Source: an uncultured bacterium (GTDB lineage: Bacteria; Patescibacteriota; Minisyncoccia; Minisyncoccales; CAZLLZ01). From it: 13,006 bases of DNA. This document shows positions 1-12,911 of the stretch, one piece after another. The notes under the pieces are model-generated. The model was not told the DNA's origin. It worked only from the letters and a program-made list of their open reading frames with translations, and searched no databases. The first letter of the stretch is position 1. Each line of letters starts with the position of its first letter. The stretch is taken from positions 1 to 13,006 of the forward strand of contig CBEVQU010000020.1 in the NCBI GenBank assembly GCA_965552115.1. Direction: 5' to 3'. The position numbers and the translations under genes are program-made.

Positions 1-371
1 TCTTAGCTAAAGATAAAAAGGAAAGTATTCTTTCTCTCTCTGTTAAATTTTTTGCTTCTTGTAAAATGACAAAAGTAGTGAAAAAAGATAAATTTTGGCC
101 AAAACCTACTGTAGATTCTGCTTTAATAAAATTGAAAGTCAAAAAAAACCTTCCTAAAATAAAAAAAGAAGTTTTCTTTAAAATTTTAAAGGCAGGTTTT
201 CTTCCAAAAAGAAAAAAGTTAACTTCTAATCTTTCGAAAAATTTAAAAATTAAAAAAGAAATTTTAGAAAAAATATTTAAAAAATTAAAAATCAAAAATT
301 TAGAAAGAGCAGAAAATCTTTCTTTAAATCAATGGATAAAACTATCAAAAGAAATTCAAAATTTCAAATAA
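1..371 (+). CDS. rsmA: 16S rRNA (adenine1518/1519-N6)-dimethyltransferase RsmA/KsgA, C-terminal part (5' end lies outside the window; the open frame starts at nt 3)
   Basis: The frame is open from nt 3 and reads ...KESILSLSVKFFASCKMTKVVKKDKFWPKPTVDSALIKL. The F-x-P-x-P-x-VDSA-(V/L) motif is the conserved C-terminal signature of KsgA/RsmA methyltransferases. The Lys-rich helical tail is typical of the family. The M at nt 66 in the ORF track is an internal residue, not the start. Confidence 0.75.
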   Translation, partial: LAKDKKESILSLSVKFFASCKMTKVVKKDKFWPKPTVDSALIKLKVKKNLPKIKKEVFFKILKAGFLPKRKKLTSNLSKNLKIKKEILEKIFKKLKIKNLERAENLSLNQWIKLSKEIQNFK

Positions 372-2863
372 AATTTATTCTTATCTTCTCTCTTTTTTTA
401 TTTTTTTTATTTTCTTTGCCGAAAGTAGCTTTCTCCCAAGAGTGTACTCAAGCAAACGAAGGAGAAACAAGACCTTGCAATGACTGCGGAATTCAAATTT
501 GTGAATGCGTCCAACAAAATGGAAATATTAGTTGCAGCTGGTCAGAATGTCAAGGAGAAGGAGTCTGTTGTACAGAAAATGGATTTTTCAGAGGAACAGA
601 TTACATATGTGACACCAAATATAAAACTCAATATAAATGTGAAGGTACGAATTGTGGAGATGATATTTTAAAAAGAAATTGTCATAAAAATAGGTATTGT
701 TCCGGAAATAGTGCAGATTGTACAGGAAACTGGTCAAGTTGGATTTGTGGATCACCTTCCCTTTTTGAAGATTGTGAAAGTTGGCAAAAATGTAAAGATG
801 GGACAGAATGGACAGATACTCAAGATCAAGTTTGCCAATGCGAAGGAGAATGTTTAGACAAACCTGAAAATCCCAGATATTATTCCAATCCTAACTTTTC
901 CGATGTTCCAGAAAAAAACTTAGGAAATGAAAATCTCTTTCTACCAATAAAATTAGATTGGGACGATATCCCAGGATGGAGAAAAAAAGGAGGGCCGACT
1001 TCTTATGTAATTGAAATAGAAAATACAACCAAAAATACTTTCTCGCAAACTCTCACTAAGTCTGAATTTATACCTCCTGAACCATGTCTTTTAAAATCAG
1101 GGGAAAAACATATCTGGCGAGTAAAAGGGTGTTGTAATTCAGATGGAACAAATTGTGGAACAGAAAGCGAATGGACATTTACTACAAACTTAGCTCCTGA
1201 GCCTTATGCCCCTAAAGATCCAGATTGGGCCGGTCCGCAAGAAAAAAAAGAAGAAACTCTTTCTACCGAATTAAAATGGTGTAAAACCGAAAATGAAGAT
1301 TTTTACGAGCCTTTACAGGATGGCTATTTCCCTAGAATTTACAAAATCTTGATTTTTCAAGAAGGAGAATGCCATCCCTTTCAAAAACAAGGTGAGGAGT
1401 GTTTACCTTTCCAACTCACCAACAATCTCTCTCCAGGACTACTTTCACCAGAGCCTGTCTTTTCGAATAAAGATTATCCTTATTTTACAAAAGATACTTC
1501 TTATAGTTGGAAAGTTTCTGCATGTAAAGATCTAGCGGGGATAGAATGTACACCTTATAGTCAAGAATGGAAATTTTCCTTAAAAGAAGAAATTATCATT
1601 AAAACTCCTTCTCTTCTTTCCCCTCCAAATGATTTCCATGGAAAACACCCTGTTGGGCTACCTGTTTCTTTAAATTGGACAGAGCCTTTTGGTGCAAGAT
1701 CTTTTGAAGTTGAAATATACGAAAATAATCAAAGAATTCATCGGAAAATAGTTTTCGCTCCACCTCTTATTTTAGATTCTCCTACTCTTTCTTTAAATAC
1801 TTTATATAAATGGAGAGTTAGAAGTTGCTGGGACGAAGAAGGAGAAAATTGCGAACCGGACTGGTCGGGATTTTATTTTTTTAAAACTACCGGAGAACCT
1901 CCTATTCTTTTAAACCCAGCGAATAACACCTCTTTACATCTTCCTATCGAATTTAAATGGAGTGAGGTACCAGGAGTGAACTCATATGTCTTTGAAGTTT
2001 TAAAAAACGGAGAAACAATTGTAAATAAAATCTCTTCCGAGCCTCTTCTTTTTTTAACTTATCCTGAGATAAAACAAGGAATATCTTATCTGTGGCACGT
2101 AAGATCTTGTGCTAAACCATTAGGAAAAATCTGTGGTTCCTGGAGTTCTACTTTTCAATTCACTGTTTCACGACTTCCCCCTCCAACTCTCTCTCTTCCA
2201 AAAGATAAAGATAATATTCCACTCTTCCAAACTCCTTTTTTGCTAAAATGGCAGCCTCTTTCTGGAATAAAATTCTATAAATACAGAGTGATTTTTCTGA
2301 AAAAAGATGAAGCGGAAAAAAATGAAGAATGCAAAACAGGAAAAGAAATTGAAGGAATTACTAAGAATTTCTCTGTTTATCTTCCTTTAAAATGTTTGGG
2401 AGAATATGAATGGCAAGTAGTGGGATGTTTTGATGAAAAATGCACCGAAATAGGAGATTGGAGTAAAAAACAGACTTTTTCCATAACTCAAAAAATCACT
2501 TCTTCAGAAAAAAGAGGACTAGTTCCTTGTAATCTTCCTTATGACATTCCAGACACACCATGGGATGAAAGGGAAAAATGTGAAATTAAACATCTTTTTA
2601 TTTTAATAAATAACATTTTAAACTTTCTCCTTTGGAAAATAGCTCCTATTGTGATAATATTATTACTAGGAACCTCTGGTCTTCTATTCTACTTCGCTTC
2701 TCTCTCTGGAGGAAATGTGGAACTTATTTATAGAATAAAGAAATGGTGGAAAGTAATTATAATCGGGTATATTCTCATTTTTGGAAGTTGGTTAATAGTA
2801 AGTTATACTCTGCTTCTTTTCGGATATAGAGTAGGGATTTTCGGAGAATGGTGGAAAATTTAG
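332..2863 (+). CDS. Large secreted/surface protein of 843 aa. It has a signal peptide, a Cys-rich module of about 140 aa, five FN3-like repeats each with a conserved Cys pair, and a C-terminal two-helix pilin-like (VirB2/TrbC-like) membrane hairpin. Putative T4SS-associated adhesin.
   Basis: The N terminus MDKTIKRNSKFQIKFILIFSLFLFFLFSLPKVAFS|QE has the n-, h- and c-regions of a signal peptide. About 21 Cys fall in residues 37-175. Five repeats each begin P-x-L-x-P...(L/F)xW and end Y-x-W-(R/K/H/Q)-V-x-x-C...C...W-(S/K)...F-(T/S). The last 90 aa (nt 2591-2863) carry two hydrophobic helices separated by a charged loop. The ORF is long, uninterrupted and overlaps the rsmA 3' end by 40 nt. Confidence 0.8.
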   Translation: MDKTIKRNSKFQIKFILIFSLFLFFLFSLPKVAFSQECTQANEGETRPCNDCGIQICECVQQNGNISCSWSECQGEGVCCTENGFFRGTDYICDTKYKTQYKCEGTNCGDDILKRNCHKNRYCSGNSADCTGNWSSWICGSPSLFEDCESWQKCKDGTEWTDTQDQVCQCEGECLDKPENPRYYSNPNFSDVPEKNLGNENLFLPIKLDWDDIPGWRKKGGPTSYVIEIENTTKNTFSQTLTKSEFIPPEPCLLKSGEKHIWRVKGCCNSDGTNCGTESEWTFTTNLAPEPYAPKDPDWAGPQEKKEETLSTELKWCKTENEDFYEPLQDGYFPRIYKILIFQEGECHPFQKQGEECLPFQLTNNLSPGLLSPEPVFSNKDYPYFTKDTSYSWKVSACKDLAGIECTPYSQEWKFSLKEEIIIKTPSLLSPPNDFHGKHPVGLPVSLNWTEPFGARSFEVEIYENNQRIHRKIVFAPPLILDSPTLSLNTLYKWRVRSCWDEEGENCEPDWSGFYFFKTTGEPPILLNPANNTSLHLPIEFKWSEVPGVNSYVFEVLKNGETIVNKISSEPLLFLTYPEIKQGISYLWHVRSCAKPLGKICGSWSSTFQFTVSRLPPPTLSLPKDKDNIPLFQTPFLLKWQPLSGIKFYKYRVIFLKKDEAEKNEECKTGKEIEGITKNFSVYLPLKCLGEYEWQVVGCFDEKCTEIGDWSKKQTFSITQKITSSEKRGLVPCNLPYDIPDTPWDEREKCEIKHLFILINNILNFLLWKIAPIVIILLLGTSGLLFYFASLSGGNVELIYRIKKWWKVIIIGYILIFGSWLIVSYTLLLFGYRVGIFGEWWKI

Positions 2864-2882
2864 CTTCTCTATATGAAATAAT

Positions 2883-3533
2883 ATGAAATATGAAAAAAAC
2901 CTTCCCTATTTAATTATCATCTTTATATCTATTTTTCTACTTCTCACAATTAGTTATTGGAGGTATTTAAAATTAGAAGAATTTTCAAAAAATTTTTTTT
3001 CTCCTAAAGAAATTTTTCAGAAAGAACTTGAAGGTATTAAAGAAAATTTTCCTCTACAAGAGGGAAATAACCAAGAGGTCAAATTTAAAAGCCCGGATGG
3101 AAAATTGGAACTAATTTATTCTTCAAGTTGGAAGGAATTACCTGGAAATACATTAAAAGGATTCTCTCCTTATTTTAAAAGAGATGGAGTTTCTCTACTT
3201 CTTTTTGCTCAAAAAATGAATTTTACTGAAGGAACCATTGCTTTTCTTCTTGTCCAGGAAATTGAAAAAAAGCCAAAAGAGACTATAAAAGATCTCATTA
3301 ACGAAATAGAAAAGGAAGCAGAAAAAAAGAAAGAAATTTCACTTAAAGAAAAAGAGGCAGAAGTAGAATTTCTCTTTTCTAAAGAAAAAGGAATACCTTG
3401 TTTCGCAAGAGAAAAAATTTTAGATGAAGGTAAAAAGTTTTTCTTAGTCGCTATTTTCTCTGCAGTAAAAGACTGGCCAACTTACGAAAAAGAAGCTCAA
3501 AAAATTCTTGATTCTGTTCGACTAATAGAGTAA
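2883..3533 (+). CDS. Single-pass membrane-anchored hypothetical protein of 216 aa. It has an N-terminal TM helix and an extracytoplasmic domain. It could be a VirB8-like component, but this is unverified.
   Basis: The N-terminal hydrophobic segment LPYLIIIFISIFLLLTISYW is followed by a Lys/Glu-rich soluble domain. The gene is tightly packed in the same orientation as its neighbours. No family motif is recognised. Confidence 0.6.
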   Translation: MKYEKNLPYLIIIFISIFLLLTISYWRYLKLEEFSKNFFSPKEIFQKELEGIKENFPLQEGNNQEVKFKSPDGKLELIYSSSWKELPGNTLKGFSPYFKRDGVSLLLFAQKMNFTEGTIAFLLVQEIEKKPKETIKDLINEIEKEAEKKKEISLKEKEAEVEFLFSKEKGIPCFAREKILDEGKKFFLVAIFSAVKDWPTYEKEAQKILDSVRLIE

Positions 3534-3573
3534 GTATTTCTTTTTTTTATTAAATGAGATAAAATAAAAAGAG

Positions 3574-4389
3574 ATGAGTCTAAACTTCTCTAAAAAATAC
3601 TTATTACTTTGGATAGTTTTGGTTTTGCTTTTTTTTCATTCTGAAACTTTGGCTCTAGAAGTTTCTTGGCCTACTTCCCCAGCAGGAACTAAATTAACAG
3701 ATGACTCAACTCTCCCCGAATTAATAAAATACCTCTATGAGTGGGGAATAAGTATCACAGGAATAATTCTTTTTCTTTCTCTTATCTTAGCTGGTTTTCA
3801 GTATCTGACTTCGGTGGGAGAACCTATAAAACTCCAAGAGGCTAAAGATAGAATCCAATCTTCTCTATTAGGAGTAATTTTTCTTTTAGCATCTTGGATA
3901 ATTCTTAATTTAATAAATCCTGCTCTTACTACCTTTAAAAATGTAGAATTCAATCCTTTAGAATCAGTGGAAGGAGAAATCACCTTAGATATGGAAGACT
4001 TACAAAAGCCTTGTGATTTTGCTTATTTATATGAAAAACCAAACTATGAAGGGGGAAAGAAAAGAATAGAGCCGGGGGAGAAAGTGGAATTAGGAGGTGG
4101 TGAGGAATATCTCTCTATTAAATCTTTTTATAGAGTTGACCAATGCACTCAAGAAGAAATTAATAAAGGAGATTGTATTAAAGAAAACGAAGAATATTAT
4201 AAAAAAGGGGGGGCTTGTACTGTTCAATTATATGCTAAAAAGAAAGTAGGGTGGTGGATTTTTGCTAAAGAGAAAGCTTGTGGAGATAAAATTTCTGAGA
4301 CTCAAGCTGTCCATCCTGACTTCTCAAGAATTTCAGACAGGCAAGTAACCTGTATAAGATTAATAAAACATGAACTCGCTGAATTTTAA
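3574..4389 (+). CDS. Pilin-like (TrbC/VirB2-like) membrane protein of 271 aa with a C-terminal Cys-rich extracellular domain
   Basis: The signal peptide is MSLNFSKKYLLLWIVLVLLFFHSETLA|LEV. The mature N-terminal region has two hydrophobic helices around a charged loop (GISITGIILFLSLILAGFQYLTSVGEPIKLQEAKDRIQSSLLGVIFLLASWIILNLINP), which is the VirB2/TrbC architecture. This region is homologous to the C-terminal hairpin of the 843-aa protein. The C-terminal 150 aa contain 8 Cys. Confidence 0.65.
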   Translation: MSLNFSKKYLLLWIVLVLLFFHSETLALEVSWPTSPAGTKLTDDSTLPELIKYLYEWGISITGIILFLSLILAGFQYLTSVGEPIKLQEAKDRIQSSLLGVIFLLASWIILNLINPALTTFKNVEFNPLESVEGEITLDMEDLQKPCDFAYLYEKPNYEGGKKRIEPGEKVELGGGEEYLSIKSFYRVDQCTQEEINKGDCIKENEEYYKKGGACTVQLYAKKKVGWWIFAKEKACGDKISETQAVHPDFSRISDRQVTCIRLIKHELAEF

Positions 4390-6628
4390 TAAATTACATA
4401 ATAAACTAGCCTTTTTAAAAACCCCTTCTTTCCTATTTTTTGTATTTCTTCTTTTAATTTTATTCATTCCAAAGCCTTCCTCTGCTTTTATCGGAACGGG
4501 AATTTTTGATTATTTTGATACTGCTTTAGAAGGTGTAGAAGAAATTGCAGGTCCTTTAGCAAAAAAAGTAATTAGTATATTCTTTGTGTACGTTATAGGA
4601 CTCATTTTTCTAGGAACTTCTACTGTTCTTCTAGAACAAACTATGAATCCTGAATGGTTATCTATTTATGGAAATCCTCTAGTAGAAAAGGGTTGGAATT
4701 TCACAGTAAATATAGCAAACATGTTTCTTGTATTAGGCTTTATTGTGATAGCTCTAGGGATTATTTTAGGAAGAAGAAGTCTTCAGATTAAAAAAACTCT
4801 TCCTAGATTAATTCTTGTGGCCTTTTTGATAAATTTTAGTTTACTTTTAGTAGGGGCTTTATTAGACATTTCAAATATTCTCTATAATACTTTTTGGAAA
4901 GGAAACGAAAATCTTCCATCGCAAGTAATAGATTTATTAATAGGCAAAGGAGGAAGTGTCCTAACAAATATGATTAGTTGGTTAGGGGCTTTAGCGCTAA
5001 GTTTTTCTATACCCTTCGTAGGTCCCTTTGCTCAAATAGCTCTCGTCTCATATCTAATAGTTGCTTTTCCTACTATGCTCGCGTGGTTTTTTCAAATAAT
5101 TTGCTTTTTTATTGTAGGAGGAATCTTCCTCTTGTACGGTATCTTGTTTGCTTTCAGAGTTTTTATTGTTCAATTATTAGCTATCATTTCTCCTCTAGCT
5201 TTTGTAGCTTGGATTTTTCCTCAAACAGAAAGATATTTCAAAACTTGGTTTAGAATGCTTTTACAATGGATATTTTTAGGTATTTTCCTTATTTTCTTTC
5301 TCTCTTTAGGATTAGCAGGAGCAGTAGCTCTTTCTGAGAAATTAGGAATAGGAGAAAATCCTACTCCTATTCCTGGCTTAAGTTGGTTTAAAGTACATGA
5401 TTATTTCGTGTATTATCTCTTTTTAACTATCTATTTAGGAATAGCAGCTGCTCTTGGAAGAAGAGTTACACCTATGTTTGTAGATCAAGCTTTAGGAATG
5501 TTTAATCAAGCGAAAGGAGCTTTTGTAGGAAGAATAGGAGGAGTTAGTAAATATATAAAAGAGAGGGCGAGAAGATGGGCAGCAGAAAAAGAAAAAGAAT
5601 TTGAAAGAAAGGAAACACCTAAAAAAACAACTGCCAAAATATGGAGGGGGATTAAAAAAGGACTAACAGGAACCATAAAATGGGCCCACAGAATAAGAGG
5701 AACTACAATTGAAGCTGGGTTAGAGAGAGATATTCAAGAGAAAAAAGAAAAATTAAAAGAAAGATTCGGTAATAATGTAGAACAAGCTAGAATTTTTTAT
5801 GGTAAATCTTGGAGAATTCTCCCGCCTACAGATAAAATAGCATTTACTCTTTACGCTGCCGAGGTTAAAGGAGGAAAGGGTTTAGTAAAAATGGGAGAAG
5901 AAGAAGCAAAAGAGGGAATTAATTTAATAGGGAAATCTTATTCAAAAAAACTCTCCGATGTTTTAAAGTATAATGTGAAACTAATGAAAGAAATGCTAGA
6001 AGATATTAGTTACGGAGGAGTATCATTAGATATTTTAGTGCCAGAAAGAGAAAAAGATAAAGATGTTATAGAGCTTATGAAATTAGGATACGAAAAAGCA
6101 GACGCTATTAAAAAAGCTGCTTTTAAAAAAGTTATAGATGACTTAAAATCTAAAGACATTGAGAAACTTACAGATGATACTCTTACTAATCCTGAATTTC
6201 AAGAAGTAACAGCTCTTTTTAAACCTTGGGGATTTATAAGAAAAATTGGAGAAGAATGGGGAGCAGACATTTTAGATAAAATCCAAGAAACTGCAGAAGA
6301 AATAGGATTAGAAAAAATTGCAAAAAGTAATCCTTCCTTTTTAAGAGCTCCTTACACCCCTGGAGGCTCTATTTTTTTAAGAAGGTGGTTTTTGGAAGGA
6401 AGAGAATTAACTCGAAATGATATAGAAGAATTAATCCGAAGAGCCAAAAGAGGAGACGATGAAGAGAAACCACCATCTTCACCGAAACCACCGAAACCCC
6501 CAAAACCACCGCCCAAACCTCCAAGAGGAAGAGCAGGAGTAGGAGTTCCAATTTACTGGACAAAAGAAAAAAAAGAAGAGGAAGAAGAGGAAGAAGAACC
6601 GAGAGGAAGAGTAGGAGTGGGAGTTTAA
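4370..6628 (+). CDS. VirB6/TrbL-like polytopic inner-membrane protein of 752 aa with a long hydrophilic C-terminal domain and a Pro-rich/poly-Glu tail
   Basis: A signal-like N terminus is followed by about 8 predicted TM helices in residues 60-370. There is then a roughly 380-aa charged cytoplasmic domain, ending in PPSSPKPPKPPKPPPKPPRGRAGVGV...EEEEEEEEPRGRVGVGV. This layout is that of Gram-positive VirB6-like proteins such as TcpH/PrgH. The start overlaps the upstream gene by 20 nt, and internal Met codons could be the true start. Confidence 0.55.
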   Translation: MNSLNFNKLHNKLAFLKTPSFLFFVFLLLILFIPKPSSAFIGTGIFDYFDTALEGVEEIAGPLAKKVISIFFVYVIGLIFLGTSTVLLEQTMNPEWLSIYGNPLVEKGWNFTVNIANMFLVLGFIVIALGIILGRRSLQIKKTLPRLILVAFLINFSLLLVGALLDISNILYNTFWKGNENLPSQVIDLLIGKGGSVLTNMISWLGALALSFSIPFVGPFAQIALVSYLIVAFPTMLAWFFQIICFFIVGGIFLLYGILFAFRVFIVQLLAIISPLAFVAWIFPQTERYFKTWFRMLLQWIFLGIFLIFFLSLGLAGAVALSEKLGIGENPTPIPGLSWFKVHDYFVYYLFLTIYLGIAAALGRRVTPMFVDQALGMFNQAKGAFVGRIGGVSKYIKERARRWAAEKEKEFERKETPKKTTAKIWRGIKKGLTGTIKWAHRIRGTTIEAGLERDIQEKKEKLKERFGNNVEQARIFYGKSWRILPPTDKIAFTLYAAEVKGGKGLVKMGEEEAKEGINLIGKSYSKKLSDVLKYNVKLMKEMLEDISYGGVSLDILVPEREKDKDVIELMKLGYEKADAIKKAAFKKVIDDLKSKDIEKLTDDTLTNPEFQEVTALFKPWGFIRKIGEEWGADILDKIQETAEEIGLEKIAKSNPSFLRAPYTPGGSIFLRRWFLEGRELTRNDIEELIRRAKRGDDEEKPPSSPKPPKPPKPPPKPPRGRAGVGVPIYWTKEKKEEEEEEEEPRGRVGVGV
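6476..6625 (+). repeat. Low-complexity coding repeats at the 3' end of the VirB6-like gene. They comprise a 9-nt periodic (ccaccgaaa)n Pro-Pro-Lys tract, a (gaagag)n poly-Glu tract, and a 27-nt imperfect direct repeat (6521-6547 and 6599-6625, 24 of 27 identical).
   Basis: These can be read directly in the sequence: ccaagaggaagagcaggagtaggagtt versus ccgagaggaagagtaggagtgggagtt. They encode RGRAGVGV and RGRVGVGV. Confidence 0.7.
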
Positions 6629-6639
6629 AAGAAAAAAGA

Positions 6640-6656
6640 AGAGATAGAACATCTCT
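6640..6656. terminator. Weak candidate bidirectional hairpin between two convergent genes: stem agagat / atctct with loop agaac
   Basis: A 6-bp inverted repeat lies at 6640-6645 and 6651-6656, between the VirB6-like stop (6628) and the SPFH stop (6670). On the minus strand it is followed by a U-rich run (complement of aaaagaaaaaagaa at 6627-6639). The stem has only 2 GC pairs, so it is weak. Confidence 0.25.
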
Positions 6657-6669
6657 CCTGAAGATTTAT

Positions 6670-7860
6670 TTATTCTTTTAGTTTCTCTTTGATTTCTTCC
6701 ACTTCTTTTTGAAGTTTTGAAAGAGCTTCTTTAACTACTTTCCATTCTCTCTCTGAAAATCTTTCTGGTTCTTTACCAAAAACACCACGTAAAACTTCTT
6801 GTAGTCCAGGAATAGCTTGAACTGCAAGGGAAGCTGCTAGAGGACTCTTTTCTACTGCTTCACAAACTCTTACCAGTTCTCCAGTTCTTCCGAGTGCTTT
6901 TACTGTTTCATAGACTCTCTTTATTCTTTCTTTCTCAGCATCAGCTAAAGTTTCTATTCTCTCTTTTTCTCTCTCTGCTAAATATTTTTTCAATGTAGCC
7001 TCTCTATATTCTTTAGGTGGATTTATAGATCTTATTTCTATCTTTTTTAGTAAAATACCATATTCTTCCTCAAATTCTTTTAATATTTTTAATTTCTTCA
7101 ATCTTTTCTTTAACTCTTCAGCCATACTTTGAGGCTCTGAAATCCATCTCTCATAAGATTTCTGAGTGATAACATCTCTAGCTTCTGCATTACATCTTTG
7201 AATCACTGCTTCCAACCAATTTTGAATTCTAAACAAAGCTTTATAAGGATTGACTACTCTAATTGTATATAGAATCTCTATATTTAAAGGTAATCTATTA
7301 ATATCCTCTGCCTTCTCTATTTTACTATAGTAGACGTCTTCTTTTAGAAGAATATAATCTAAGACTTCCTTCTCATGATGAATAATCTTCCCATCTTCCT
7401 TTATTCCTGTCCAAGTAAAACCATAAATATATATATCTTTTATCGGCCAAAAACCATAGTATCTAAACCCTCCTAAAGGATGGCACTTTTCTTTGTATAT
7501 TTTAGCTCCAGGTGTCCCAAGAGGAACTTTTTTTCCATCTTTCATCGGAATTCCTTCTTTTACTACATTCCACTGTTCATCTAAAGTATATCCTTTCCAT
7601 TGAATTAGTATCTTTATCACTTGGTCTCCTTTTACTACCACCTTCGCTGTTCCTTCTTTTACAAAGGTAAAAAATAAATTGTCTTCTGCTAATCCAAAGT
7701 ATACCCAGGCAAAAAGCCCAATAGGAATGGTTACCCAAAACACTAGTAAAAAGAGTATTTTCCCTAGAGAAAAATCAAAAGCTTTCGAAAGTAGAGACCC
7801 AATATACAGAAGTACTTCTATTCCTACCCATTTTATTAAAATCTTTAAAGAACTAATCAT
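6670..7860 (-). CDS. SPFH/band-7 (stomatin/prohibitin/flotillin/HflK-C family) membrane protein of 396 aa
   Basis: N-terminal TM helices are followed by a core that fits the SPFH pattern (IEILYTIRVVNPYKALFRIQNWLEAVIQRCNAEARDVITQKS...). There is then a coiled-coil tail rich in AEREKERIETLADAEKERIKRV-type repeats, typical of flotillin/YqiK-like proteins. Confidence 0.55.
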   Translation of the reverse strand: MISSLKILIKWVGIEVLLYIGSLLSKAFDFSLGKILFLLVFWVTIPIGLFAWVYFGLAEDNLFFTFVKEGTAKVVVKGDQVIKILIQWKGYTLDEQWNVVKEGIPMKDGKKVPLGTPGAKIYKEKCHPLGGFRYYGFWPIKDIYIYGFTWTGIKEDGKIIHHEKEVLDYILLKEDVYYSKIEKAEDINRLPLNIEILYTIRVVNPYKALFRIQNWLEAVIQRCNAEARDVITQKSYERWISEPQSMAEELKKRLKKLKILKEFEEEYGILLKKIEIRSINPPKEYREATLKKYLAEREKERIETLADAEKERIKRVYETVKALGRTGELVRVCEAVEKSPLAASLAVQAIPGLQEVLRGVFGKEPERFSEREWKVVKEALSKLQKEVEEIKEKLKE

Positions 7861-7932
7861 ACTTTTAAAATACCACTTTATTAAAATTTGTCAACATTTT
7901 TCTCTTTTTCTTTTTTTTATATAATAAAACTA
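7861..7932. promoter_or_regulatory. Divergent AT-rich intergenic region. It probably holds promoters for the SPFH gene (minus strand) and the operon running from the small ORF through the PrgI-like gene to the VirB4-like genes (plus strand).
   Basis: This 72-bp non-coding gap lies between divergent starts. It contains TTGTCA at 7888-7893 and TATAAT at 7920-7925, but they are about 26 bp apart, which is not the canonical 17 bp. Promoter elements are therefore suggested but not cleanly resolved. Confidence 0.2.
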
Positions 7933-8328
7933 ATGTCAAAAGAATATTCAAAAGAAGAACTCTGGAAACTTTATAAAAATTTACCTGAAGAATTAAAAGA
8001 AGCTATTTTTTCTGAAAAAATAGCCGAAGATATTTATAGAATCTGTGAAAGATACGGAATTTCAGAGTGTGGCAAGCTTTCAAAAATTGTAGGTCATACA
8101 TTTTTAGGAATATTACCTCCCTCTGAAATTGAAGAAACTCTAAGAAAAGAGTTGTTACTTACTTCAGGGAAAGCAAAAAAAATTTCTAACGAAATTCATA
8201 GGTTTATTTTTTATCCTTTTAAAAAAGAGATTTCTTTGATCTATAGTAAAGAAATTGAGACCTTAAAAGAAGATACTAAAAAAGAAATTGAGAAAAAAAG
8301 AGATATTTATAGAGAACCTATAGAATAA
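7888..8328 (+). CDS. Hypothetical small cytoplasmic protein of 146 aa. An alternative start at the Met codon at 7933 would give 131 aa.
   Basis: This is an open reading frame with Lys/Glu-rich helical character and no TM segment. It is the first gene after the divergent intergenic region and is co-oriented with the VirB3/VirB4-like genes. No family is recognised. Confidence 0.5.
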   Translation: MSTFFSFSFFYIIKLMSKEYSKEELWKLYKNLPEELKEAIFSEKIAEDIYRICERYGISECGKLSKIVGHTFLGILPPSEIEETLRKELLLTSGKAKKISNEIHRFIFYPFKKEISLIYSKEIETLKEDTKKEIEKKRDIYREPIE

Positions 8329-8332
8329 TACA

Positions 8333-8740
8333 ATGGAATTTCAAGTGCCACAATTTATAGAAAGGGAACCTAAAATAATTGGGCCTTTTACTTTTAAGCA
8401 ATTTTTGTTTTTAGCAATTTGTGGAGGAATCTGTGCTATTTTCTATTTTATTTTTCCTAGATTCATTTTTTATGCTTTAACTGCTTTAGTAATGGGAGGA
8501 GCTATTGGATTAATGGTAGTTAAAATAGAAGGACAACCTATTCCAACACTTTTGAAAAATTTTTTCTTTTTTTCTACTTCTCCTAAGCTCTATTTATGGA
8601 AAAAGAAAGAGATTTCTCCTCCTATCATTAAAGAAGAAAGGAAGATAGAAAAAAAAGAAAAAGAAACTACTTTAAAACTGGGAGAAAAAAGCAGACTTAA
8701 AAATATATTTACTAAAGTTGAACTAAGCCAGAGAAAATGA
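8333..8740 (+). CDS. PrgI-family / VirB3-like small T4SS membrane protein of 135 aa
   Basis: The N terminus MEFQVPQFIEREPKIIGPFTFKQFLFLAICGG... matches the PrgI-family pattern (VP-x-x-I...K-I-x-GP(F/L)T-x-(R/K)Q) and is followed by two TM helices. It lies immediately upstream of the VirB4-like gene, preserving VirB3-VirB4 synteny. Its TGA stop overlaps the next ATG (ATGA), indicating translational coupling. Confidence 0.55.
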   Translation: MEFQVPQFIEREPKIIGPFTFKQFLFLAICGGICAIFYFIFPRFIFYALTALVMGGAIGLMVVKIEGQPIPTLLKNFFFFSTSPKLYLWKKKEISPPIIKEERKIEKKEKETTLKLGEKSRLKNIFTKVELSQRK

Positions 8741-9390
8741 GAAAAAAAATTCTTCCCTCAACTCAACAATTTCTAGAATATAAGCAAATTAAGGAAGGGA
8801 TAATTATTTTAAAAGACAATTCTTTAAGAGGGATTTTAATGGTTTCTTCTTTAAATTTTGCTTTAAAATCAGATGAAGAGCAAAAAGCTATTTTATACCA
8901 ATTCCAAGACTTTCTAAATTCTTTAGATTTTACTTGTCAAATTCTTGTTCAATCTAGAAGATTAAATATCACAGGTTATTTGGAGAAATTAGAAGATTTA
9001 GAAAAAGCTCAACAAAATGAGCTTTTAAAGCTTCAAACTAGAGAATATAGAAATTTTATTAAAGGACTTGTTGAAAAAGGAACTATTATGACAAAAAAAT
9101 TTTTTGTAATTGTCCCCTATTTTCTTTTAGAAGCTAAAGGAGTTATATCTCCTTTAGAAATACTAAAAGGGAAAGCAGAAGAAGAAATTTTAACTGAAGA
9201 AAAGTTTCAAAGGTATAAAGAACAACTTTGGCAAAGAATGGAATATGTTGCTTTAGGTTTAAGAAGATGTGGTTTGGAAGCTTTACCTTTAAATACAGCA
9301 GAAATTATTGAATTGCTTTGGGAATATCATCATCCAAAAGAAGCTGAATTTGGATATTATCCAGAATTACCTCCCGAAATCTTAAAATAA
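8737..9390 (+). CDS. VirB4/TrbE/PrgJ-family ATPase, N-terminal domain ORF of 217 aa, ending at an in-frame TAA
   Basis: ...GIIILKDNSLRGILMVSSLNFALKSDEEQKAILYQFQDFLNSLDFTCQILVQSRRLNI... fits the VirB4/TcpF/PrgJ N-terminal pattern (dG-s-l-x-il-x-v-x-g-x-N-x-x-L-x-seeE-x-x-x-i...fLnsL-x-x-x-x-Qi). It is in the same frame as the following ATPase ORF, separated from it only by TAA at 9388-9390. Confidence 0.6.
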   Translation: MRKKILPSTQQFLEYKQIKEGIIILKDNSLRGILMVSSLNFALKSDEEQKAILYQFQDFLNSLDFTCQILVQSRRLNITGYLEKLEDLEKAQQNELLKLQTREYRNFIKGLVEKGTIMTKKFFVIVPYFLLEAKGVISPLEILKGKAEEEILTEEKFQRYKEQLWQRMEYVALGLRRCGLEALPLNTAEIIELLWEYHHPKEAEFGYYPELPPEILK

Positions 9391-9393
9391 ATT

Positions 9394-11196
9394 ATGTTTA
9401 AAATTTTTAAAAAAAGAAAGAAAAAAGAATTAGAAAAAGAAAAATTATTTGAAGAAACAGTCTTGACTAGTAAAGATATTGTTGCTCCTCCATCTTTAGA
9501 AGTAAAGCCAAATTATTTAAAAATAGGTGAAAGATTAGCTAAAACTTTCTTTGTTTTCTCTTTTCCTAGATATTTAGGAATGGTTTGGACTTCCCCTTTA
9601 ATCAACTTGGATATCCCAATGGATATTTCTTTTTTTATTCATCCTCTTCCAACAGGAGAATTATTAAAGAAACTAAGAAAAAGAGTAACAGAACTCGAAG
9701 CTGAGATAGCAGAAAGAGAAGAAAAAGGACTTATAAGAGAGCCTGCTTTAGAGGTAGCTTATAGAGATTTAGAGCTTTTGAGAGAGAGGCTTCAAACTGC
9801 CCAAGAAAGAATGTTCAAATTAGGAGTTTATCTAACTGTCTATGCAGATACAGAAAAAGAAATGAGAGAATATGAGACAACTTTAAGGGAAATTTTTGAG
9901 GCAAGGTTAATTTATTTAAAACCTGCTCTTTATCAGCAAAAAGAAGGATTCATCTCTTGTCTGCCTTATGGACAAGATAAACTTTTAGTTCACACTACAA
10001 TGAATACAATGCCTCTCTCTTCTTGTTTTCCTTTTGTCTCTTTCGATTTAAGCTCAAATGAAGGAATATTGTATGGAATAAATTTACACAACAACTCTTT
10101 AGTTTTATTTGATAGATTTTCTTTAGAAAATGCTAATGAGGTTGTCTTTGGAGTCGCAGGAGGAGGAAAATCATATGCTATAAAGTTAGAAATTTTAAGA
10201 TATTTGATGGAAGGAGTAGATGTGATCGTAATTGACCCTGAAAATGAATATAAAACATTATGTGAAGCAGTAGGAGGGTCCTTTTTTAAAATCTCTCTTA
10301 CTTCTCCAAACCATATCAACCCTTTAGATCTACCTTCTCCAAGAGAAGACGAAGACCCAAAAGATGTCTTAAGATCAAATATCATAAATTTAGTTGGTCT
10401 TTTAAGAATAATGCTAGGAGGTCTAACTCCAGAAGAAGATGCTATTGTAGATAGAGCTTTAACTGAAACTTATGCAGCGAGAGATATCACTCCACAATCC
10501 GACCCTTCTACTTGGAAAGAGAACATTCCTCTTTTGGAAGATTTAGAATCTGTTTTAGAAACAATGGAAGGAGCTGAATCTTTAGTTAGAAGATTAAGGA
10601 AATTTACAAAAGGAACTTATGCTGATTTCTTTAACAACCCCACAAACATCTCAATGGATAAAAATTTTGTTGTCTTTGGAATTAGAGATATGGAAGAAGA
10701 ACTAAGACCAATGGCAATGTTTTTAATTATGAGATACATTTGGAATACTATAAGATCGAAACTTAAAAAAAGAATCTTAGTAGTGGACGAAGCCTGGTGG
10801 ATAATGAAATCAGAAGATGGAGCATCTTTTTTGTATGGAATATGTAAAAGAGCTAGGAAATATTGGCTTGGAGTAACAACTATTACCCAAGATGTAATAG
10901 ACTTTATGAAATCTGTCTATGGGCAACCTATTATTACAAACTCTGCCCTTTGTCTTCTTCTAAAACAAAGTCCTGCTACAATTGATATAGTCAAAAAAAC
11001 CTTTAATCTAACAGAAGAAGAAAAGTATATGCTTTTGGAAGCTGAAGTAGGAGAAGGTTTGTTTTTTGCTGGAAGAAAACACGTGGCTATAAAAGTTGTA
11101 GCTTCTTATACAGAAGATCAAATAATTACTACTTCCCCTGAAGAAATAATAAGAATTCGAAAAAGAAAAAAAGAATTAGAGGAAAATCTCCCTTAA
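9394..11196 (+). CDS. VirB4/TrbE/CagE-family T4SS ATPase, C-terminal ATPase portion of 600 aa
   Basis: Walker A is VVFGVAGGGKSYA. Walker B is ILVVDEAWWIM, and the hhhhDEAW form is a VirB4 hallmark. The LGVTTITQDVIDF motif is also present. Together with the upstream ORF the length is about 818 aa, typical for VirB4. Confidence 0.8.
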   Translation: MFKIFKKRKKKELEKEKLFEETVLTSKDIVAPPSLEVKPNYLKIGERLAKTFFVFSFPRYLGMVWTSPLINLDIPMDISFFIHPLPTGELLKKLRKRVTELEAEIAEREEKGLIREPALEVAYRDLELLRERLQTAQERMFKLGVYLTVYADTEKEMREYETTLREIFEARLIYLKPALYQQKEGFISCLPYGQDKLLVHTTMNTMPLSSCFPFVSFDLSSNEGILYGINLHNNSLVLFDRFSLENANEVVFGVAGGGKSYAIKLEILRYLMEGVDVIVIDPENEYKTLCEAVGGSFFKISLTSPNHINPLDLPSPREDEDPKDVLRSNIINLVGLLRIMLGGLTPEEDAIVDRALTETYAARDITPQSDPSTWKENIPLLEDLESVLETMEGAESLVRRLRKFTKGTYADFFNNPTNISMDKNFVVFGIRDMEEELRPMAMFLIMRYIWNTIRSKLKKRILVVDEAWWIMKSEDGASFLYGICKRARKYWLGVTTITQDVIDFMKSVYGQPIITNSALCLLLKQSPATIDIVKKTFNLTEEEKYMLLEAEVGEGLFFAGRKHVAIKVVASYTEDQIITTSPEEIIRIRKRKKELEENLP

Positions 11197-11651
11197 GGAT
11201 AAGGTTTTATCACCACTCTTCTTTTGGGTTCTCTCCCTACGCTTTGAGTAGTAACATCTCCCCTTTCTGCTAACTCTAAATGAATGATTCTTCTTTCATA
11301 AGGAGGCATAGGGGGTAAAATTTCCTCCTTTTTTGTTAAAGAAACTTTATCTGCTAAATTTTTAGCTAACTCTTTTAGATATTTTATTTTATTTTGTTTG
11401 TAATTGTTAATATCAACATCTATAAAAAAATGGTCTTTGATCTTTCTTTTCAAAATCGCTTTCAATAAATGCTGAATAGAAAATAAACTCTTTCCATTTT
11501 CTCCAATTAAAATTTGAGGCTCTTTTGATTCAACTTTTAAAAAAATAGTCTCTTGTTTTGGAGGAAGAAAAGTTATTTTTACAAAAGGATCTATAAAGTT
11601 AAAAAACTCATTTGTGATTTTTTTTATTTTTTCAAAATCTTCTTTGGTCAT
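11193..11651 (-). CDS. jag: Jag/KhpB RNA-binding protein with KH and R3H domains
   Basis: The KH-like segment ILIGENGKSLFSIQHLLKAIL carries the GxxG loop. The C-terminal R3H motif is ERRIIHLELAERGDVTTQSVGREPKRRVVIKP. The gene sits downstream of yidC as in the conserved operon. Confidence 0.8.
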   Translation of the reverse strand: MTKEDFEKIKKITNEFFNFIDPFVKITFLPPKQETIFLKVESKEPQILIGENGKSLFSIQHLLKAILKRKIKDHFFIDVDINNYKQNKIKYLKELAKNLADKVSLTKKEEILPPMPPYERRIIHLELAERGDVTTQSVGREPKRRVVIKPYP

Positions 11652-11660
11652 TTTCTTTTT

Positions 11661-12353
11661 TTATTTTGATAAAAGATAATATTGGAAAATGGTGAAAAAA
11701 GTGCTTGTTATCCAATATAAAGCGACAGCTGCCGGAATTTTTAAAAGAATAAGAAAGGTAAAAAAAGGAAAAAAATATAACATTTGTTTTTGAAAAACTT
11801 GAGAAATTTCTTTTTCTTTCTCTAAAGAAAACTGGGAAGTTTGTCTTGTTTGAAAATATTGAGAAATTCCAGCTATTAAAGCTAAAAAAATACTAGGCTT
11901 TGAAAGATCCAACAAACCTAAAAAAAGAGGAGGAATTTCCTTTATTTGAGGGACAAAAGAATATAAATTTATCATAGATTGAGGAGAAATACCTCCCCAA
12001 AAAACTTTTAAAAGAGCAATTAAAATAGGAAGTTGAATTAAGAGAGGTAAGCATCCTGAAAATGGATTAATTTTTTCTTTTTTATATAATTCCATTAAAG
12101 CTTTAGCTTGTTTTTCTTTTTGGTCTTTATATTTTTTCTGAATTTCTCTTATCTTTGGCTGAAGCTCTGACATTTTCTTTTGAGATATTAAAGATTTAAG
12201 AGTGATTGGATAGAGAATAATTTTTACTATTAAAGTCAAAGCAATAATTGAAATTCCTAGATCATGAGGAGGAAGAAAATAATAAATAATTATAAGTAAA
12301 TTAAAAAGAGGTTTATATAAAATTGTGTAAAATAAAAAGGTAAAAATCTCCAT
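11661..12353 (-). CDS. yidC: Membrane protein insertase YidC (short Gram-positive/CPR-type form, 230 aa)
   Basis: LQPKIREIQKKYKDQKEKQAKALMELYKKEKINPFSGCLPLLIQLPILIALLKVF matches the YidC/Oxa1 core (MQ-x-lqPe...iqeKYk......qEmm-x-LYk-e-x-gvNP-x-x-GClP-x-LiQmPi). The protein has multiple TM helices. Confidence 0.85.
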   Translation of the reverse strand: MEIFTFLFYTILYKPLFNLLIIIYYFLPPHDLGISIIALTLIVKIILYPITLKSLISQKKMSELQPKIREIQKKYKDQKEKQAKALMELYKKEKINPFSGCLPLLIQLPILIALLKVFWGGISPQSMINLYSFVPQIKEIPPLFLGLLDLSKPSIFLALIAGISQYFQTRQTSQFSLEKEKEISQVFQKQMLYFFPFFTFLILLKIPAAVALYWITSTFFTIFQYYLLSK

Positions 12354-12354
12354 A

Positions 12355-12564
12355 TTAAGGTAAATCTACCCCTCCTTTAGAAAAAGGGTGGCATCTTAAA
12401 ATTCTTTTCAAAATTAAAAAAACGGCCTTTCTTTTATTATATTTTTTCAAAGCTAAGATAGAATATTCAGAACAAGAAGGATAAAATCTGCAGTGTTTTC
12501 CTAAAAAAGGAGAAATAAATAACTGATATTTTCTTAAAATGGAAATTAAAAATTTATTTTTCAT
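12355..12564 (-). CDS. yidD: Membrane protein insertion efficiency factor YidD
   Basis: The sequence ISPFLGKHCRFYPSCSEYSILALKKYN...LKRILRCHPFSKGGVDLP carries the canonical YidD motifs (CRF-x-PSCS-x-Y, RCHP, GG-x-D-x-P). It lies between rnpA and yidC as expected. Confidence 0.9.
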   Translation of the reverse strand: MKNKFLISILRKYQLFISPFLGKHCRFYPSCSEYSILALKKYNKRKAVFLILKRILRCHPFSKGGVDLP

Positions 12565-12907: not shown

Positions 12908-12911
12908 TTTT

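What the first reader, a model, noticed from the sequence alone, without database searches (positions are those of the whole stretch)
332..11196. Compact Gram-positive/CPR-style T4SS-like module beside the rpmH-rnpA-yidC-jag operon
Co-oriented, tightly packed genes encode a VirB4-family ATPase (Walker A, DEAW Walker B and TITQ motif all visible), a PrgI/VirB3-like protein translationally coupled directly upstream of it, a VirB6/TrbL-like polytopic membrane protein, and two proteins with VirB2/TrbC-like pilin hairpins. Uncharacterised membrane and small proteins that may fill other roles are also present. No VirD4 coupling protein, relaxase, integrase, VirB1-like hydrolase or VirB11 is seen in the window. 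The flanks are core chromosomal genes (rsmA, and the origin-proximal rpmH operon). This suggests a chromosomally fixed, non-conjugative, VirB4-powered surface apparatus, possibly for cell-cell or host attachment or for DNA/protein exchange in a reduced-genome symbiont. Such minimal systems are poorly characterised, and the adhesin-pilin fusion architecture here is unusual.
Basis: partly seen in the sequence, partly recalled or inferred. Interest (0 to 1): 0.8.

Follow-up and report, generated by a model that had tools for sequence, protein, structure and literature searches.

The report
Known chromosomal T4SS of Patescibacteria
This is a real, origin-proximal type IV secretion-like gene cluster of an ultra-small (CPR/Patescibacteria) bacterium, but the system was already described in 2023-2025; the only fresh detail is that two near-identical strains carry completely different versions of its surface-exposed half.

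Summary
The genes are there and profile searches support the calls. They are a VirB4 ATPase (CD1110 family), a PrgI/VirB3 protein, a remote VirB6/TrbL-like polytopic protein and two proteins carrying a VirB2-like pilin hairpin (PF18895). They lie between rsmA and jag-yidC-yidD-rnpA-rpmH, with dnaA just beyond.

Two details need correcting. A 217-aa TrsD-like ORF, homologous to the VirB4 N-terminal domain, sits between PrgI and the 600-aa VirB4. One gene (SPFH/Band 7) is on the opposite strand.

The core order and the rsmA/rnpA flanks recur in most of about 90 related Parcubacteria/Paceibacteria loci. No relaxase, coupling protein or integrase lies within 10 kb. So it is a vertically inherited chromosomal system, not an ICE.

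This system, including TrsD, the pilins, the missing relaxase and the rnpA/ksgA/rpmH/dnaA neighbourhood, was published by Quinonero-Coronel et al. 2025 and shown essential in a saccharibacterium by Wang et al. 2023. The finding is therefore already known.

Incremental observations:
- Pilin-domain proteins in this clade are mostly large fusions (95 of 104).
- A 7.4-kb surface cassette is swapped between two strains 99.7-99.8% identical in the flanks.
- A large unannotated family sits upstream of PrgI and ends in DxYREPIE.
- A PsbP-like protein lies between the two pilin-domain genes; it is not VirB8-like.

The parts
1..371 (+). 3' part of rsmA/ksgA (16S rRNA dimethyladenosine transferase); conserved left flank
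   Evidence: Pfam RrnaAD E 1e-12. It is 99% identical to the full 275-aa gene of L081.
332..2863 (+). O1, an 843-aa secreted adhesin-pilin fusion. It has a signal peptide, a Cys-rich N-domain (21 Cys in residues 37-200), five ~95-aa Fn3-like modules each ending W[KRHQ]VxxC..C..WS..F.F, and a VirB2-like two-helix hairpin at the extreme C-terminus (residues ~755-832).
   Evidence: PF18895 E 5e-4 (below the gathering score). Local hairpin HMM E 1e-9. TM segments. Repeats. Weak but consistent Fn3/Ig hits.
2883..3533 (+). O2, a 216-aa membrane-anchored protein with a PsbP/Mog1/DcrB/LpqN-like domain. It evolves fast and always lies between the N-extended pilin fusion and the next pilin gene.
3574..4389 (+). 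O3, a 271-aa pilin-domain protein. It has a signal peptide, a VirB2-like hairpin (residues 45-114) and a ~155-aa Cys-containing C-terminal domain.
   Evidence: PF18895 31.7 bits, above the gathering score of 26.6. NCBIfam Mbov_0395 pilin-like E 1.4e-5. Only weak beta/gamma-crystallin hints for the C-domain.
4370..6628 (+). O4, a 752-aa 'extended' VirB6/TrbL-like polytopic membrane protein (about 7-8 TM segments in residues 12-363). It carries a ~390-aa hydrophilic C-terminal region ending in Pro-rich and poly-Glu low-complexity sequence.
   Evidence: TrbL 21.6 bits, below the gathering score. TM segments. 7 of 42 homologues hit TrbL, best E 2.5e-7. Weak matches to TrwI (E 0.35) and PrgH (E 0.0047). 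C-termini are not conserved.
6670..7860 (-). O5, a 396-aa SPFH/Band 7 membrane protein on the opposite strand. It is embedded in the module in roughly half of the related loci that include the region upstream of PrgI.
   Evidence: Pfam Band_7 49.5 bits. Present between VirB6 and PrgI in about 25 loci.
7933..8328 (+). O6, a 131-aa cytoplasmic helical protein of a large unannotated family. It has a conserved helical domain, a variable linker and a near-invariant C-terminal D-x-Y-R-E-P-I-E. It is the first gene of the O6-PrgI-TrsD-VirB4 operon.
8333..8740 (+). O7, the PrgI/VirB3-like protein (135 aa, TM hairpin at residues 19-55). Its stop overlaps the start of O8 (ATGA).
   Evidence: Pfam PrgI 32.3 bits, above the gathering score of 27. 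Sequence.
8737..9390 (+). O8, a 217-aa TrsD-like protein: a stand-alone homologue of the N-terminal domain of full-length VirB4.
   Evidence: NCBIfam VirB4_plasma E 4.8e-10 (profile positions 103-233), CD1110 positions 1-116, TrsD/TraD E 9e-4. Precomputed PF26593 TraC-like. Present in 83 loci, median 59% identity.
9394..11196 (+). O9, the VirB4 ATPase (600 aa; middle and C-terminal P-loop domains). Walker A is at 10150-10173, Walker B (DEAW) at 10780-10800 and TITQ at 10876-10893.
   Evidence: NCBIfam CD1110 377 bits, above the cutoff of 325, covering profile positions 166-734 of 752. PDB 4AG5 E 7e-46. Motifs.
870..8324 (.). Strain-variable 'surface cassette': O1 from codon 180, O2, O3, O4, O5 and O6. 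It is replaced by a diverged allele in an otherwise near-identical genome.
   Evidence: blastn of the window against L081 gives 99.66% identity over 1-869 and 99.83% over 8321-13006, with nothing alignable between. The junctions are sharp. Both alleles were seen in independent assemblies.
11193..13004 (-). Conserved right flank: jag/khpB (11193-11651), yidC (11661-12353), yidD (12355-12564), rnpA (12554-12907) and the 3' part of rpmH (12912-13004). dnaA-dnaN lie just beyond the window.
   Evidence: Pfam. L34 reading frame. dnaA/dnaN in L081/L086.

Best explanation
The window carries the chromosomal, origin-proximal type IV secretion system typical of Patescibacteria (CPR), in the layout seen in Parcubacteria/Paceibacteria. 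This system derives from the monoderm MPF_FATA conjugation machinery and has lost the DNA-processing half.

Shown here:
- An operon O6-PrgI-TrsD-VirB4 encodes the cytoplasmic and membrane-proximal motor. The VirB4 ATPase is naturally split into a TrsD-like N-domain protein and a 600-aa P-loop protein. PrgI/VirB3 is its membrane anchor.
- An upstream operon, rsmA-O1-O2-O3-O4, encodes the envelope part: a VirB6-like polytopic channel or platform protein and two VirB2-like pilin-domain proteins fused to large extracellular domains.
- The motor genes are under strong purifying selection and are vertically inherited. The envelope genes are hypervariable.

Inferred:
- VirB4 hexamers docked on PrgI/VirB6 extract the pilin hairpins from the membrane and polymerise them into a pilus or tube.
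- The surface or tip of that structure displays the fused Fn3-like/Cys-rich domains as host-binding adhesins.
- The structure mediates contact with a host cell and passage of macromolecules, either import of host nucleic acid or other material, or export of effectors. It does not mediate conjugation.
For: Component identities come from profile searches.

The split VirB4 is conserved. All of the more than 100 closest homologues are about 595 aa, and a TrsD-like ORF precedes VirB4 in 83 loci.

The rsmA ... PrgI-TrsD-VirB4 ... jag-yidC-rnpA order is conserved in most loci long enough to show it. dnaA-dnaN follow immediately.

Within the same genome pairs, VirB4 (median 68% identity) and TrsD (59%) are more conserved than the flanking housekeeping genes jag, yidC and rnpA (46-47%) and rsmA (38%).

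The closest plasmid VirB4s are at most 36% identical and come from monoderms.

No relaxase, T4CP or integrase lies in the window or in the 10-kb flanks.

Literature:
- The same gene set and neighbourhood was described across 2,417 Patescibacteria genomes, with VirB4 forming a monophyletic clade nested in MPF_FATA (PMC12102498).
- The T4SS genes, including the pilin array, are essential for epibiotic growth of Southlakia epibionticum (PMC10633639).
- Tubular structures, possibly T4SS pili, were seen at the parasite-host interface of a cultivated member that takes up host RNA (bioRxiv 10.64898/2026.06.21.733656).
Against: Function is inferred, not shown. No pilus has been demonstrated for this lineage and no cargo is known.

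The window's own VirB6-like protein and the O1 hairpin fall below the Pfam gathering scores.

No VirB8-like or VirB1-like gene is in the window. O2 is PsbP-like, not NTF2-like.

I could not scan the rest of the genome for a distant VirD4 or relaxase. The 2025 survey reports VirD4 homologues elsewhere in many Patescibacteria genomes.

Large domains fused to both kinds of pilin hairpin might be incompatible with a canonical VirB2 helical lattice. If so, these proteins may be membrane-anchored adhesins rather than polymerising subunits.
Confidence: 0.85

Rival explanations
1. The cluster is an ordinary integrated conjugative element, or the remnant of one, that happens to sit near the origin.
For: The VirB4, PrgI and TrsD families are those of Gram-positive conjugative plasmids and ICEs (CD1110, pGO1, pCF10).
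Against: The insertion site and core gene order are the same across dozens of species-level genomes.

No integrase, relaxase or T4CP lies within 10 kb.

VirB4 is more conserved than the neighbouring housekeeping genes and is at most 36% identical to any plasmid VirB4.

Published phylogeny shows a monophyletic Patescibacteria clade with rare inter-class transfer.
Confidence: 0.03
2. The module is a decaying pseudogene cluster: VirB4 has been broken by an in-frame stop into 217-aa and 600-aa pieces.
For: The two ORFs are in the same frame and are separated only by TAA-ATT. Together they cover the full-length CD1110 VirB4 profile.
Against: The split is universal in the clade: 83 loci have TrsD followed by a ~595-aa VirB4. 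Both pieces are highly conserved, 59% and 68% median identity. TrsD is a known separate gene in pGO1-type systems, is widespread in Patescibacteria and is essential in S. epibionticum.
Confidence: 0.02
3. The pilin-domain proteins do not form a pilus. They are membrane-anchored adhesins or surface-layer proteins that merely use a VirB2-like hairpin as an anchor, and the VirB4/VirB6/PrgI core works as a pilus-less translocon, as in Gram-positive conjugation.
For: 95 of 104 pilin-domain ORFs carry extensions, taking the proteins to as much as 1436 aa in total. Such extensions would be hard to pack in a VirB2 lattice. Monoderm MPF_FATA systems normally lack pili.
Against: In the F-pilin and T-pilin lattices, from my own knowledge, the termini face outward, so terminal fusions are topologically displayable.

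A few short pilins co-occur in some loci (for example L023) and could form the shaft, with the fusions as minor or tip subunits.

Tubular structures have been seen in a cultivated relative.
Confidence: 0.25
4. The difference between the two alleles of the 870-8324 segment is an assembly chimera rather than a biological cassette exchange.
For: Several metagenomic contigs end exactly at the junction next to PrgI (L082-L084, L088-L090). This is also what mis-joins at repeats would give.
Against: The window allele is reproduced at 100% over 26-6834 in SRR22214787. It is reproduced at 99.86% over 6946-8361, crossing the right junction, in SRR22214791.

The other allele is found in a 530-kb contig and in GCA_964514325.1.

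Both alleles keep intact, homologous ORFs in nearly the same order; O6 and SPFH are swapped.
Confidence: 0.05

Closest known systems
Patescibacteria-clade T4SS (Quinonero-Coronel et al. 2025, Microb Genom, PMC12102498)
   Same: The component set is the same: VirB4, TrsD, PrgI/VirB3, VirB6-like and VirB2-like PF18895 pilins. No relaxase is present. The location is chromosomal, next to rnpA, ksgA (rsmA), rpmH and dnaA/dnaN, as reported for Paceibacteria.
   Different: There is no difference in kind. The following are not mentioned in that paper's main text:
- the predominance of large pilin fusions;
- the embedded SPFH gene;
- the O6 family;
- the PsbP-like O2;
- strain-level cassette replacement.
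Southlakia epibionticum ML1 T4SS, SEML1_0006-0019 (Wang et al. 2023, Cell, PMC10633639)
   Same: VirB4 is split in the same way (a 612-aa ATPase plus an upstream TrsD-like gene). PrgI, a VirB6-like protein and PF18895 pilins are present. There is no coupling protein or relaxase in the cluster. The gene numbers place the locus near the start of the chromosome.
   Different: In S. epibionticum the pilins form an array of six short proteins (104-186 aa). A lysozyme gene and a non-essential NTF2-like gene lie in the cluster.

Here the pilin hairpins are fused to domains of 155 to 750 aa, and no NTF2-like or lysozyme gene is in the window. A LysM-M23 peptidase gene sits just upstream of rsmA in the same and sister genomes.
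Monoderm MPF_FATA conjugation systems (pGO1/pSK41 TrsC-TrsD-TrsE; pCF10 PrgH-PrgI-PrgJ; CTn2 CD1110)
   Same: VirB4 belongs to the CD1110 family. PrgI lies immediately upstream. A TrsD-type separate N-domain protein is present as in pGO1. The order VirB6-like, VirB3-like, VirB4 matches pCF10.
   Different: There is no relaxase, T4CP (PcfC), VirB1-like PrgK, VirB8-like PrgL or LPXTG adhesin PrgB. VirB2-like pilins are present instead. Identity to plasmid VirB4s is at most 36%. O6 shows no similarity to PrgF or PrgG.
Non-conjugative VirB4-based uptake systems (Ced of Sulfolobales; ComB of Helicobacter)
   Same: These are VirB4-type ATPase systems without a relaxase, used for import rather than conjugation. 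The published hypothesis for the Patescibacteria system is of this kind.
   Different: The window VirB4 matches CedB and CedD only weakly and partially (52.8 and 25.1 bits against cutoffs of 700 and 600). There are no CedA-like or ComB-specific components. This is an analogy of function only.

Membership tests
Patescibacteria-clade chromosomal T4SS | VirB4 ATPase with intact Walker A and B motifs, closest to Patescibacteria VirB4s and nested among monoderm (MPF_FATA) VirB4s | tested here: met
   CD1110 family, 377 bits against a cutoff of 325. Motifs are intact. The listed closest relatives (120 proteins, 80 loci) are 55-84% identical, and those carrying an organism name are nearly all Patescibacteria/Parcubacteria. 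The best plasmid hits are at most 36% identical and come from Actinobacteria and Firmicutes. I did not build a formal tree.
Patescibacteria-clade chromosomal T4SS | Separate TrsD-like gene (VirB4 N-domain homologue) adjacent to virB4 | tested here: met
   O8 at 8737-9390. NCBIfam VirB4 N-terminal matches at E 4.8e-10 and 2.8e-6; TrsD/TraD E 9e-4, below its cutoff. PF26593. Conserved in 83 loci.
Patescibacteria-clade chromosomal T4SS | PrgI/VirB3 homologue next to virB4 | tested here: met
   Pfam PrgI 32.3 bits, above the gathering score of 27.
Patescibacteria-clade chromosomal T4SS | VirB6/TrbL-like polytopic protein near virB4 | tested here: inconclusive
   The window protein scores 21.6 bits against a gathering score of 25.9. 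7 of 42 family members hit TrbL at E<=0.01. Matches to TrwI and PrgH are weak. Topology and gene position fit.
Patescibacteria-clade chromosomal T4SS | VirB2-like pilin genes (PF18895) near virB4 | tested here: met
   O3 scores 31.7 bits, above 26.6. O1 is sub-threshold in Pfam but scores E 1e-9 with the clade-specific hairpin HMM.
Patescibacteria-clade chromosomal T4SS | No relaxase or coupling protein in the cluster; chromosomal site near oriC (dnaA, rnpA, rpmH, ksgA) | tested here: met
   The rest of the genome could not be scanned.
Conjugative element (ICE or plasmid T4SS) | Relaxase, T4CP (VirD4/TcpA) and integrase or replication module linked to the mating-pair-formation genes | tested here: not met
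   None is present in the 13-kb window or in 10 kb on either side in the same-species contig.
Canonical VirB/D4 (MPF_T) T4SS | VirB7, VirB9 and VirB10 outer-membrane core, VirB8, VirB11 and VirB5 | tested here: not met
   No Pfam or NCBIfam match to any of these in any ORF. O2 was tested as a VirB8 candidate and is PsbP-like, not NTF2-like.
VirB2/TrbC pilin (polymerising subunit) | Short (about 70-120 aa mature) two-helix protein that assembles into a helical pilus | not testable with these tools
   The hairpin is present, but the proteins are 271 and 843 aa. Polymerisation cannot be judged from sequence.

The most novel reading that the evidence does not exclude
The rsmA-to-PrgI segment may be a recombination-exchanged host-specificity cassette. 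On this reading, the VirB6-like channel, the adhesin-pilin fusions, the PsbP-like O2, the SPFH protein and the variable part of O6 co-vary as one co-adapted unit. That unit is swapped wholesale between otherwise clonal strains, while the PrgI-TrsD-VirB4 motor stays fixed. The T4SS pilus or tube of Paceibacteria would then display receptor-binding domains encoded in cis as pilin fusions, and host range would be reprogrammed by cassette replacement. O6, with its invariant C-terminal DxYREPIE, would be a conserved adaptor linking the variable envelope part to the invariant motor, or else a secreted substrate.
Probability: 0.3. Interest if true: 0.55.

Novelty: already known. Interest (0 to 1): 0.3.

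Why it matters
The system matters for CPR biology. It is near-universal in a phylum that makes up a large share of bacterial diversity, it is essential in the one member tested, and it is the leading candidate for how these epibionts draw on their hosts. But the existence, composition, non-conjugative nature and origin-proximal location of the system are already published, so the finding as written adds one more example.

What could be worth a short follow-up:
- Evidence at population level that the envelope half is exchanged as a block between near-identical strains.
- Pilin hairpins in the Parcubacteria loci sampled here being mostly fused to large adhesin-like domains, unlike the short pilins of Saccharimonadia.
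- A very large unannotated family (O6, more than 7,000 50%-identity clusters) that belongs to the motor operon.

Tried and rejected
1. Recoding or an alternative genetic code as the reason for the O8/O9 split. Rejected: the stop is TAA, every gene closes normally in table 11, and the split is conserved.
4. Search for further alleles of the cassette with junction-flank 32-33-mers in JGI metagenome contigs: 0 hits, twice.
5. Rfam, tRNA and promoter/terminator scans of the window. There were no RNA families and no tRNAs, and promoter and terminator counts were at chance level.
6. Profile of the VirB6-like family against the PDB: only a weak TrwI match, E 0.35.
7. O3 C-terminal domain as beta/gamma-crystallin: only sub-significant hints (gamma-crystallin B E 0.32; Crystall_3 E 0.23; Inhibitor_I36 E 0.003 for the other allele). 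I kept this as a lead only.
8. O4 C-terminus as a conserved docking motif: not conserved among homologues.
Full report
**What is in the window.** The 13,006-bp window (27-36% G+C) is filled by fourteen ORFs.

On the plus strand:
- the 3' end of rsmA;
- O1 (332-2863, 843 aa);
- O2 (2883-3533, 216 aa);
- O3 (3574-4389, 271 aa);
- O4 (4370-6628, 752 aa).

On the minus strand: O5 (6670-7860, 396 aa).

On the plus strand again:
- O6 (7933-8328, 131 aa);
- O7 (8333-8740, 135 aa);
- O8 (8737-9390, 217 aa);
- O9 (9394-11196, 600 aa).

On the minus strand: jag, yidC, yidD, rnpA and the end of rpmH.

Gene junctions are tight. O1 overlaps rsmA by 40 nt and O4 overlaps O3 by 20 nt. O6 and O7 are 4 nt apart, O7 and O8 overlap by ATGA, and O8 and O9 are separated by TAA-ATT. 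No tRNA or Rfam family is present, and promoter and terminator consensus counts are at chance level.

**Check of the observation.**
- O9 is a VirB4. NCBIfam CD1110 family scores 377 bits against a cutoff of 325. Pfam P-loop_TraG scores E 5e-28. The best solved relative is the Gram-positive VirB4 4AG5 at E 7e-46. GVAGGGKS, VVDEAWW and TTITQD are all intact.
- O7 is PrgI/VirB3-like, above the Pfam gathering score.
- O3 carries a PF18895 T4SS_pilin hairpin above the gathering score.
- O1 carries one at its extreme C-terminus that is sub-threshold in Pfam (E 5e-4). It scores E 1e-9 with a hairpin HMM trained on the related loci.
- O4 is polytopic and hits TrbL/VirB6 just below the gathering score. 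7 of 42 of its homologues hit TrbL, and profile matches to TrwI and PrgH are weak.
- No ORF resembles VirD4, a relaxase, an integrase, VirB1, VirB8 or VirB11.

Two corrections are needed. It lies between PrgI and the 600-aa ATPase, and O8 plus O9 together span the full-length VirB4 profile. Second, the SPFH gene is on the other strand.

**Is it a mobile element?** No.

A scan of one genome per species returned 80 loci with VirB4s 55-77% identical, labelled Parcubacteria, Nealsonbacteria, Paceibacterota, Minisyncoccales and the like. In these loci and in further contigs the core order VirB6-like, (SPFH, minus strand), O6, PrgI, TrsD, VirB4 recurs. Where the contig reaches far enough, rsmA lies on one side and jag-yidC-(yidD)-rnpA on the other.

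In the same-species 530-kb contig and in the two closest sister species, rpmH is followed by dnaA-dnaN, and a LysM-Peptidase_M23 gene precedes rsmA.

Within the same genome pairs, VirB4 (median 68%) and TrsD (59%) are more conserved than jag, yidC and rnpA (46-47%) and rsmA (38%). The closest plasmid-borne VirB4s are at most 36% identical and come from Actinobacteria and Firmicutes.

The VirB4 split is not a lesion. All close homologues are about 595 aa, and TrsD precedes VirB4 in 83 loci.

**Comparison with the literature.** The system is already described.

Quinonero-Coronel et al. 2025 (PMC12102498) found VirB4 in 2,417 of 3,035 Patescibacteria genomes. It forms a monophyletic clade nested in MPF_FATA. 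It is accompanied by TrsD, PrgI/VirB3, VirB6 and VirB2-like (PF18895) pilins, usually without a relaxase. In Paceibacteria it lies next to dnaA, dnaN, rnpA, ksgA and rpmH. They propose a repurposed, possibly importing, non-conjugative machine.

Wang et al. 2023 (PMC10633639) showed by Tn-seq that the homologous cluster of Southlakia epibionticum (SEML1_0006-0019) is essential for epibiotic growth. That cluster has a 612-aa VirB4, a TrsD-like gene, PrgI, a VirB6-like gene and six short pilins.

A 2025 FEMS review calls these systems notable for their essentiality and for their potential to elaborate pili. A 2026 preprint reports tubular structures, possibly T4SS pili, at the host interface of a cultivated member that acquires host RNA.

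**Extra observations on the accessory genes.**

(a) Pilin fusions are the rule here. Of 104 pilin-domain ORFs in the loci:
- 83 have the hairpin near the N-terminus followed by a large C-terminal extension; the whole protein is 230-1436 aa;
- 12 have it at the extreme C-terminus after a large N-terminal domain, like O1;
- only 7 are short.

This contrasts with the 104-186-aa pilins of S. epibionticum. O1 has 40 cysteines and five ~95-aa modules ending W[KRHQ]VxxC..C..WS..F.F, with weak but consistent Fn3/Ig-type matches.

(c) O6 belongs to a large family without a Pfam model: 7,244 clusters at 50% identity at E<=1e-3, and 3,217 at 1e-10. It has a confidently predicted helical domain, a variable linker and a near-invariant C-terminal D-x-Y-R-E-P-I-E. 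It has no TM segment, no convincing structural match and no similarity to pCF10 PrgF or PrgG. It is the first gene of the motor operon in 63 loci.

(d) An SPFH/Band 7 gene is embedded in the module in about 25 loci. It is not mentioned in the main text or in the held supplements of the 2025 paper.

**Strain-level cassette replacement.** The 530-kb contig ERZ26872903 NODE_1 (L081) is 99.66% identical to the window over 1-869 and 99.83% over 8321-13006. Its PrgI, TrsD and VirB4 are 100% identical. The 7.4 kb in between cannot be aligned at the nucleotide level, except for the pilin hairpin (66%) and the last 16 codons of O6 (84%).

The junctions are sharp. The left one falls after O1 codon 179, and the right one a few bases 5' of the PrgI start.

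The alternative allele encodes homologous but strongly diverged proteins, with the order of O6 and SPFH swapped. Identities over aligned positions are: O1 55% (its first 179 aa are identical), O2 33%, O3 41%, VirB6-like 34%, SPFH 29% and O6 40%.

Both alleles are reproduced in independent assemblies, and several contigs end exactly at the junction. That would be expected if the alleles coexist. The two nearest sister species have yet other gene sets between rsmA and PrgI.

I read this as replacement of the envelope-exposed half of the apparatus by recombination in conserved flanks. That is the pattern expected for surface structures under diversifying selection from host specificity, phages or competitors. 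It rests on two alleles only. Scans for more found nothing.

**Most likely mechanism.**

Shown: a conserved motor operon (O6-PrgI-TrsD-VirB4) and a variable envelope operon (pilin fusions, O2 and the VirB6-like gene) at a fixed origin-proximal site, with no DNA-processing genes nearby.

Inferred from established T4SS biology: VirB4 hexamers anchored by PrgI/VirB3 on a VirB6 platform dislocate pilin hairpins from the membrane and polymerise them. The fused Fn3-like/Cys-rich domains, attached to termini that face outward in known VirB2/TraA lattices, would serve as adhesins. The structure would mediate host contact and macromolecule passage.

The direction of transport and the cargo are unknown. 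Whether the large fusions polymerise at all is also open; this is the third rival explanation.

**Verdict.** Interest is low to moderate and rests on the incremental observations above.

Noticed in passing
window 870-8324, compared with L081 1450-8927: Two genomes that are 99.7-99.8% identical in the flanks, with 100% identical PrgI, TrsD and VirB4, carry non-alignable alleles of the whole envelope half: the adhesin-pilin from codon 180, O2, the pilin, the VirB6-like gene, SPFH and O6. The junctions are sharp, and several metagenomic contigs break exactly there.
   Followed up: partly
window 7933-8328 (O6) and 63 related loci: O6 belongs to a large unannotated family (more than 7,000 50%-identity clusters). 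It has a helical domain, a variable linker and a near-invariant C-terminal D-x-Y-R-E-P-I-E, and it always lies just upstream of PrgI. It has no TM segment, no Pfam model and no convincing PDB fold match. It could be an adaptor for the motor or a substrate with a C-terminal signal.
   Followed up: partly
[not shown]
   Followed up: partly
window 6670-7860 (minus strand): An SPFH/Band 7 gene is embedded in the T4SS module in about 25 related loci, on the opposite strand, sometimes before and sometimes after O6. It is not discussed in the published survey.
   Followed up: partly
L086 54-1070 (minus); L091 3112-4077; L093 675-1694: A LysM + Peptidase_M23 gene sits immediately upstream of rsmA in the same species and in two sister species, just outside the window. 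It is a candidate cell-wall hydrolase standing in for VirB1.
   Followed up: no
80 related loci (L001-L080): Within the same genome pairs, VirB4 (median 68% identity) and TrsD (59%) are more conserved than the adjacent housekeeping genes jag, yidC and rnpA (46-47%) and rsmA (38%).
   Followed up: yes
85 related loci: Pilin-domain genes occupy one of two alternative positions: between rsmA and the VirB6-like gene (as in the window) or between VirB4 and jag (in most other loci). 95 of 104 are fusions to large extra domains, up to 1436 aa in total.
   Followed up: yes
window 6400-6628 (O4 C-terminus): The VirB6-like protein ends in low-complexity sequence: PKPPKPPKPPPKPP, a run of eight Glu and a duplicated PRGR[AV]GVGV. 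The C-terminal ~390 aa are hydrophilic and not conserved among homologues.
   Followed up: partly
window 3925-4389 (O3 C-terminal domain): The six-Cys domain fused after the pilin hairpin shows only sub-significant beta/gamma-crystallin-type hints: gamma-crystallin B E 0.32, and Inhibitor_I36 E 0.003 in the other allele.
   Followed up: partly
window 332-371: The start of O1 overlaps the end of rsmA by 40 nt. The surface operon therefore appears to be read through from a housekeeping rRNA methyltransferase gene.
   Followed up: no
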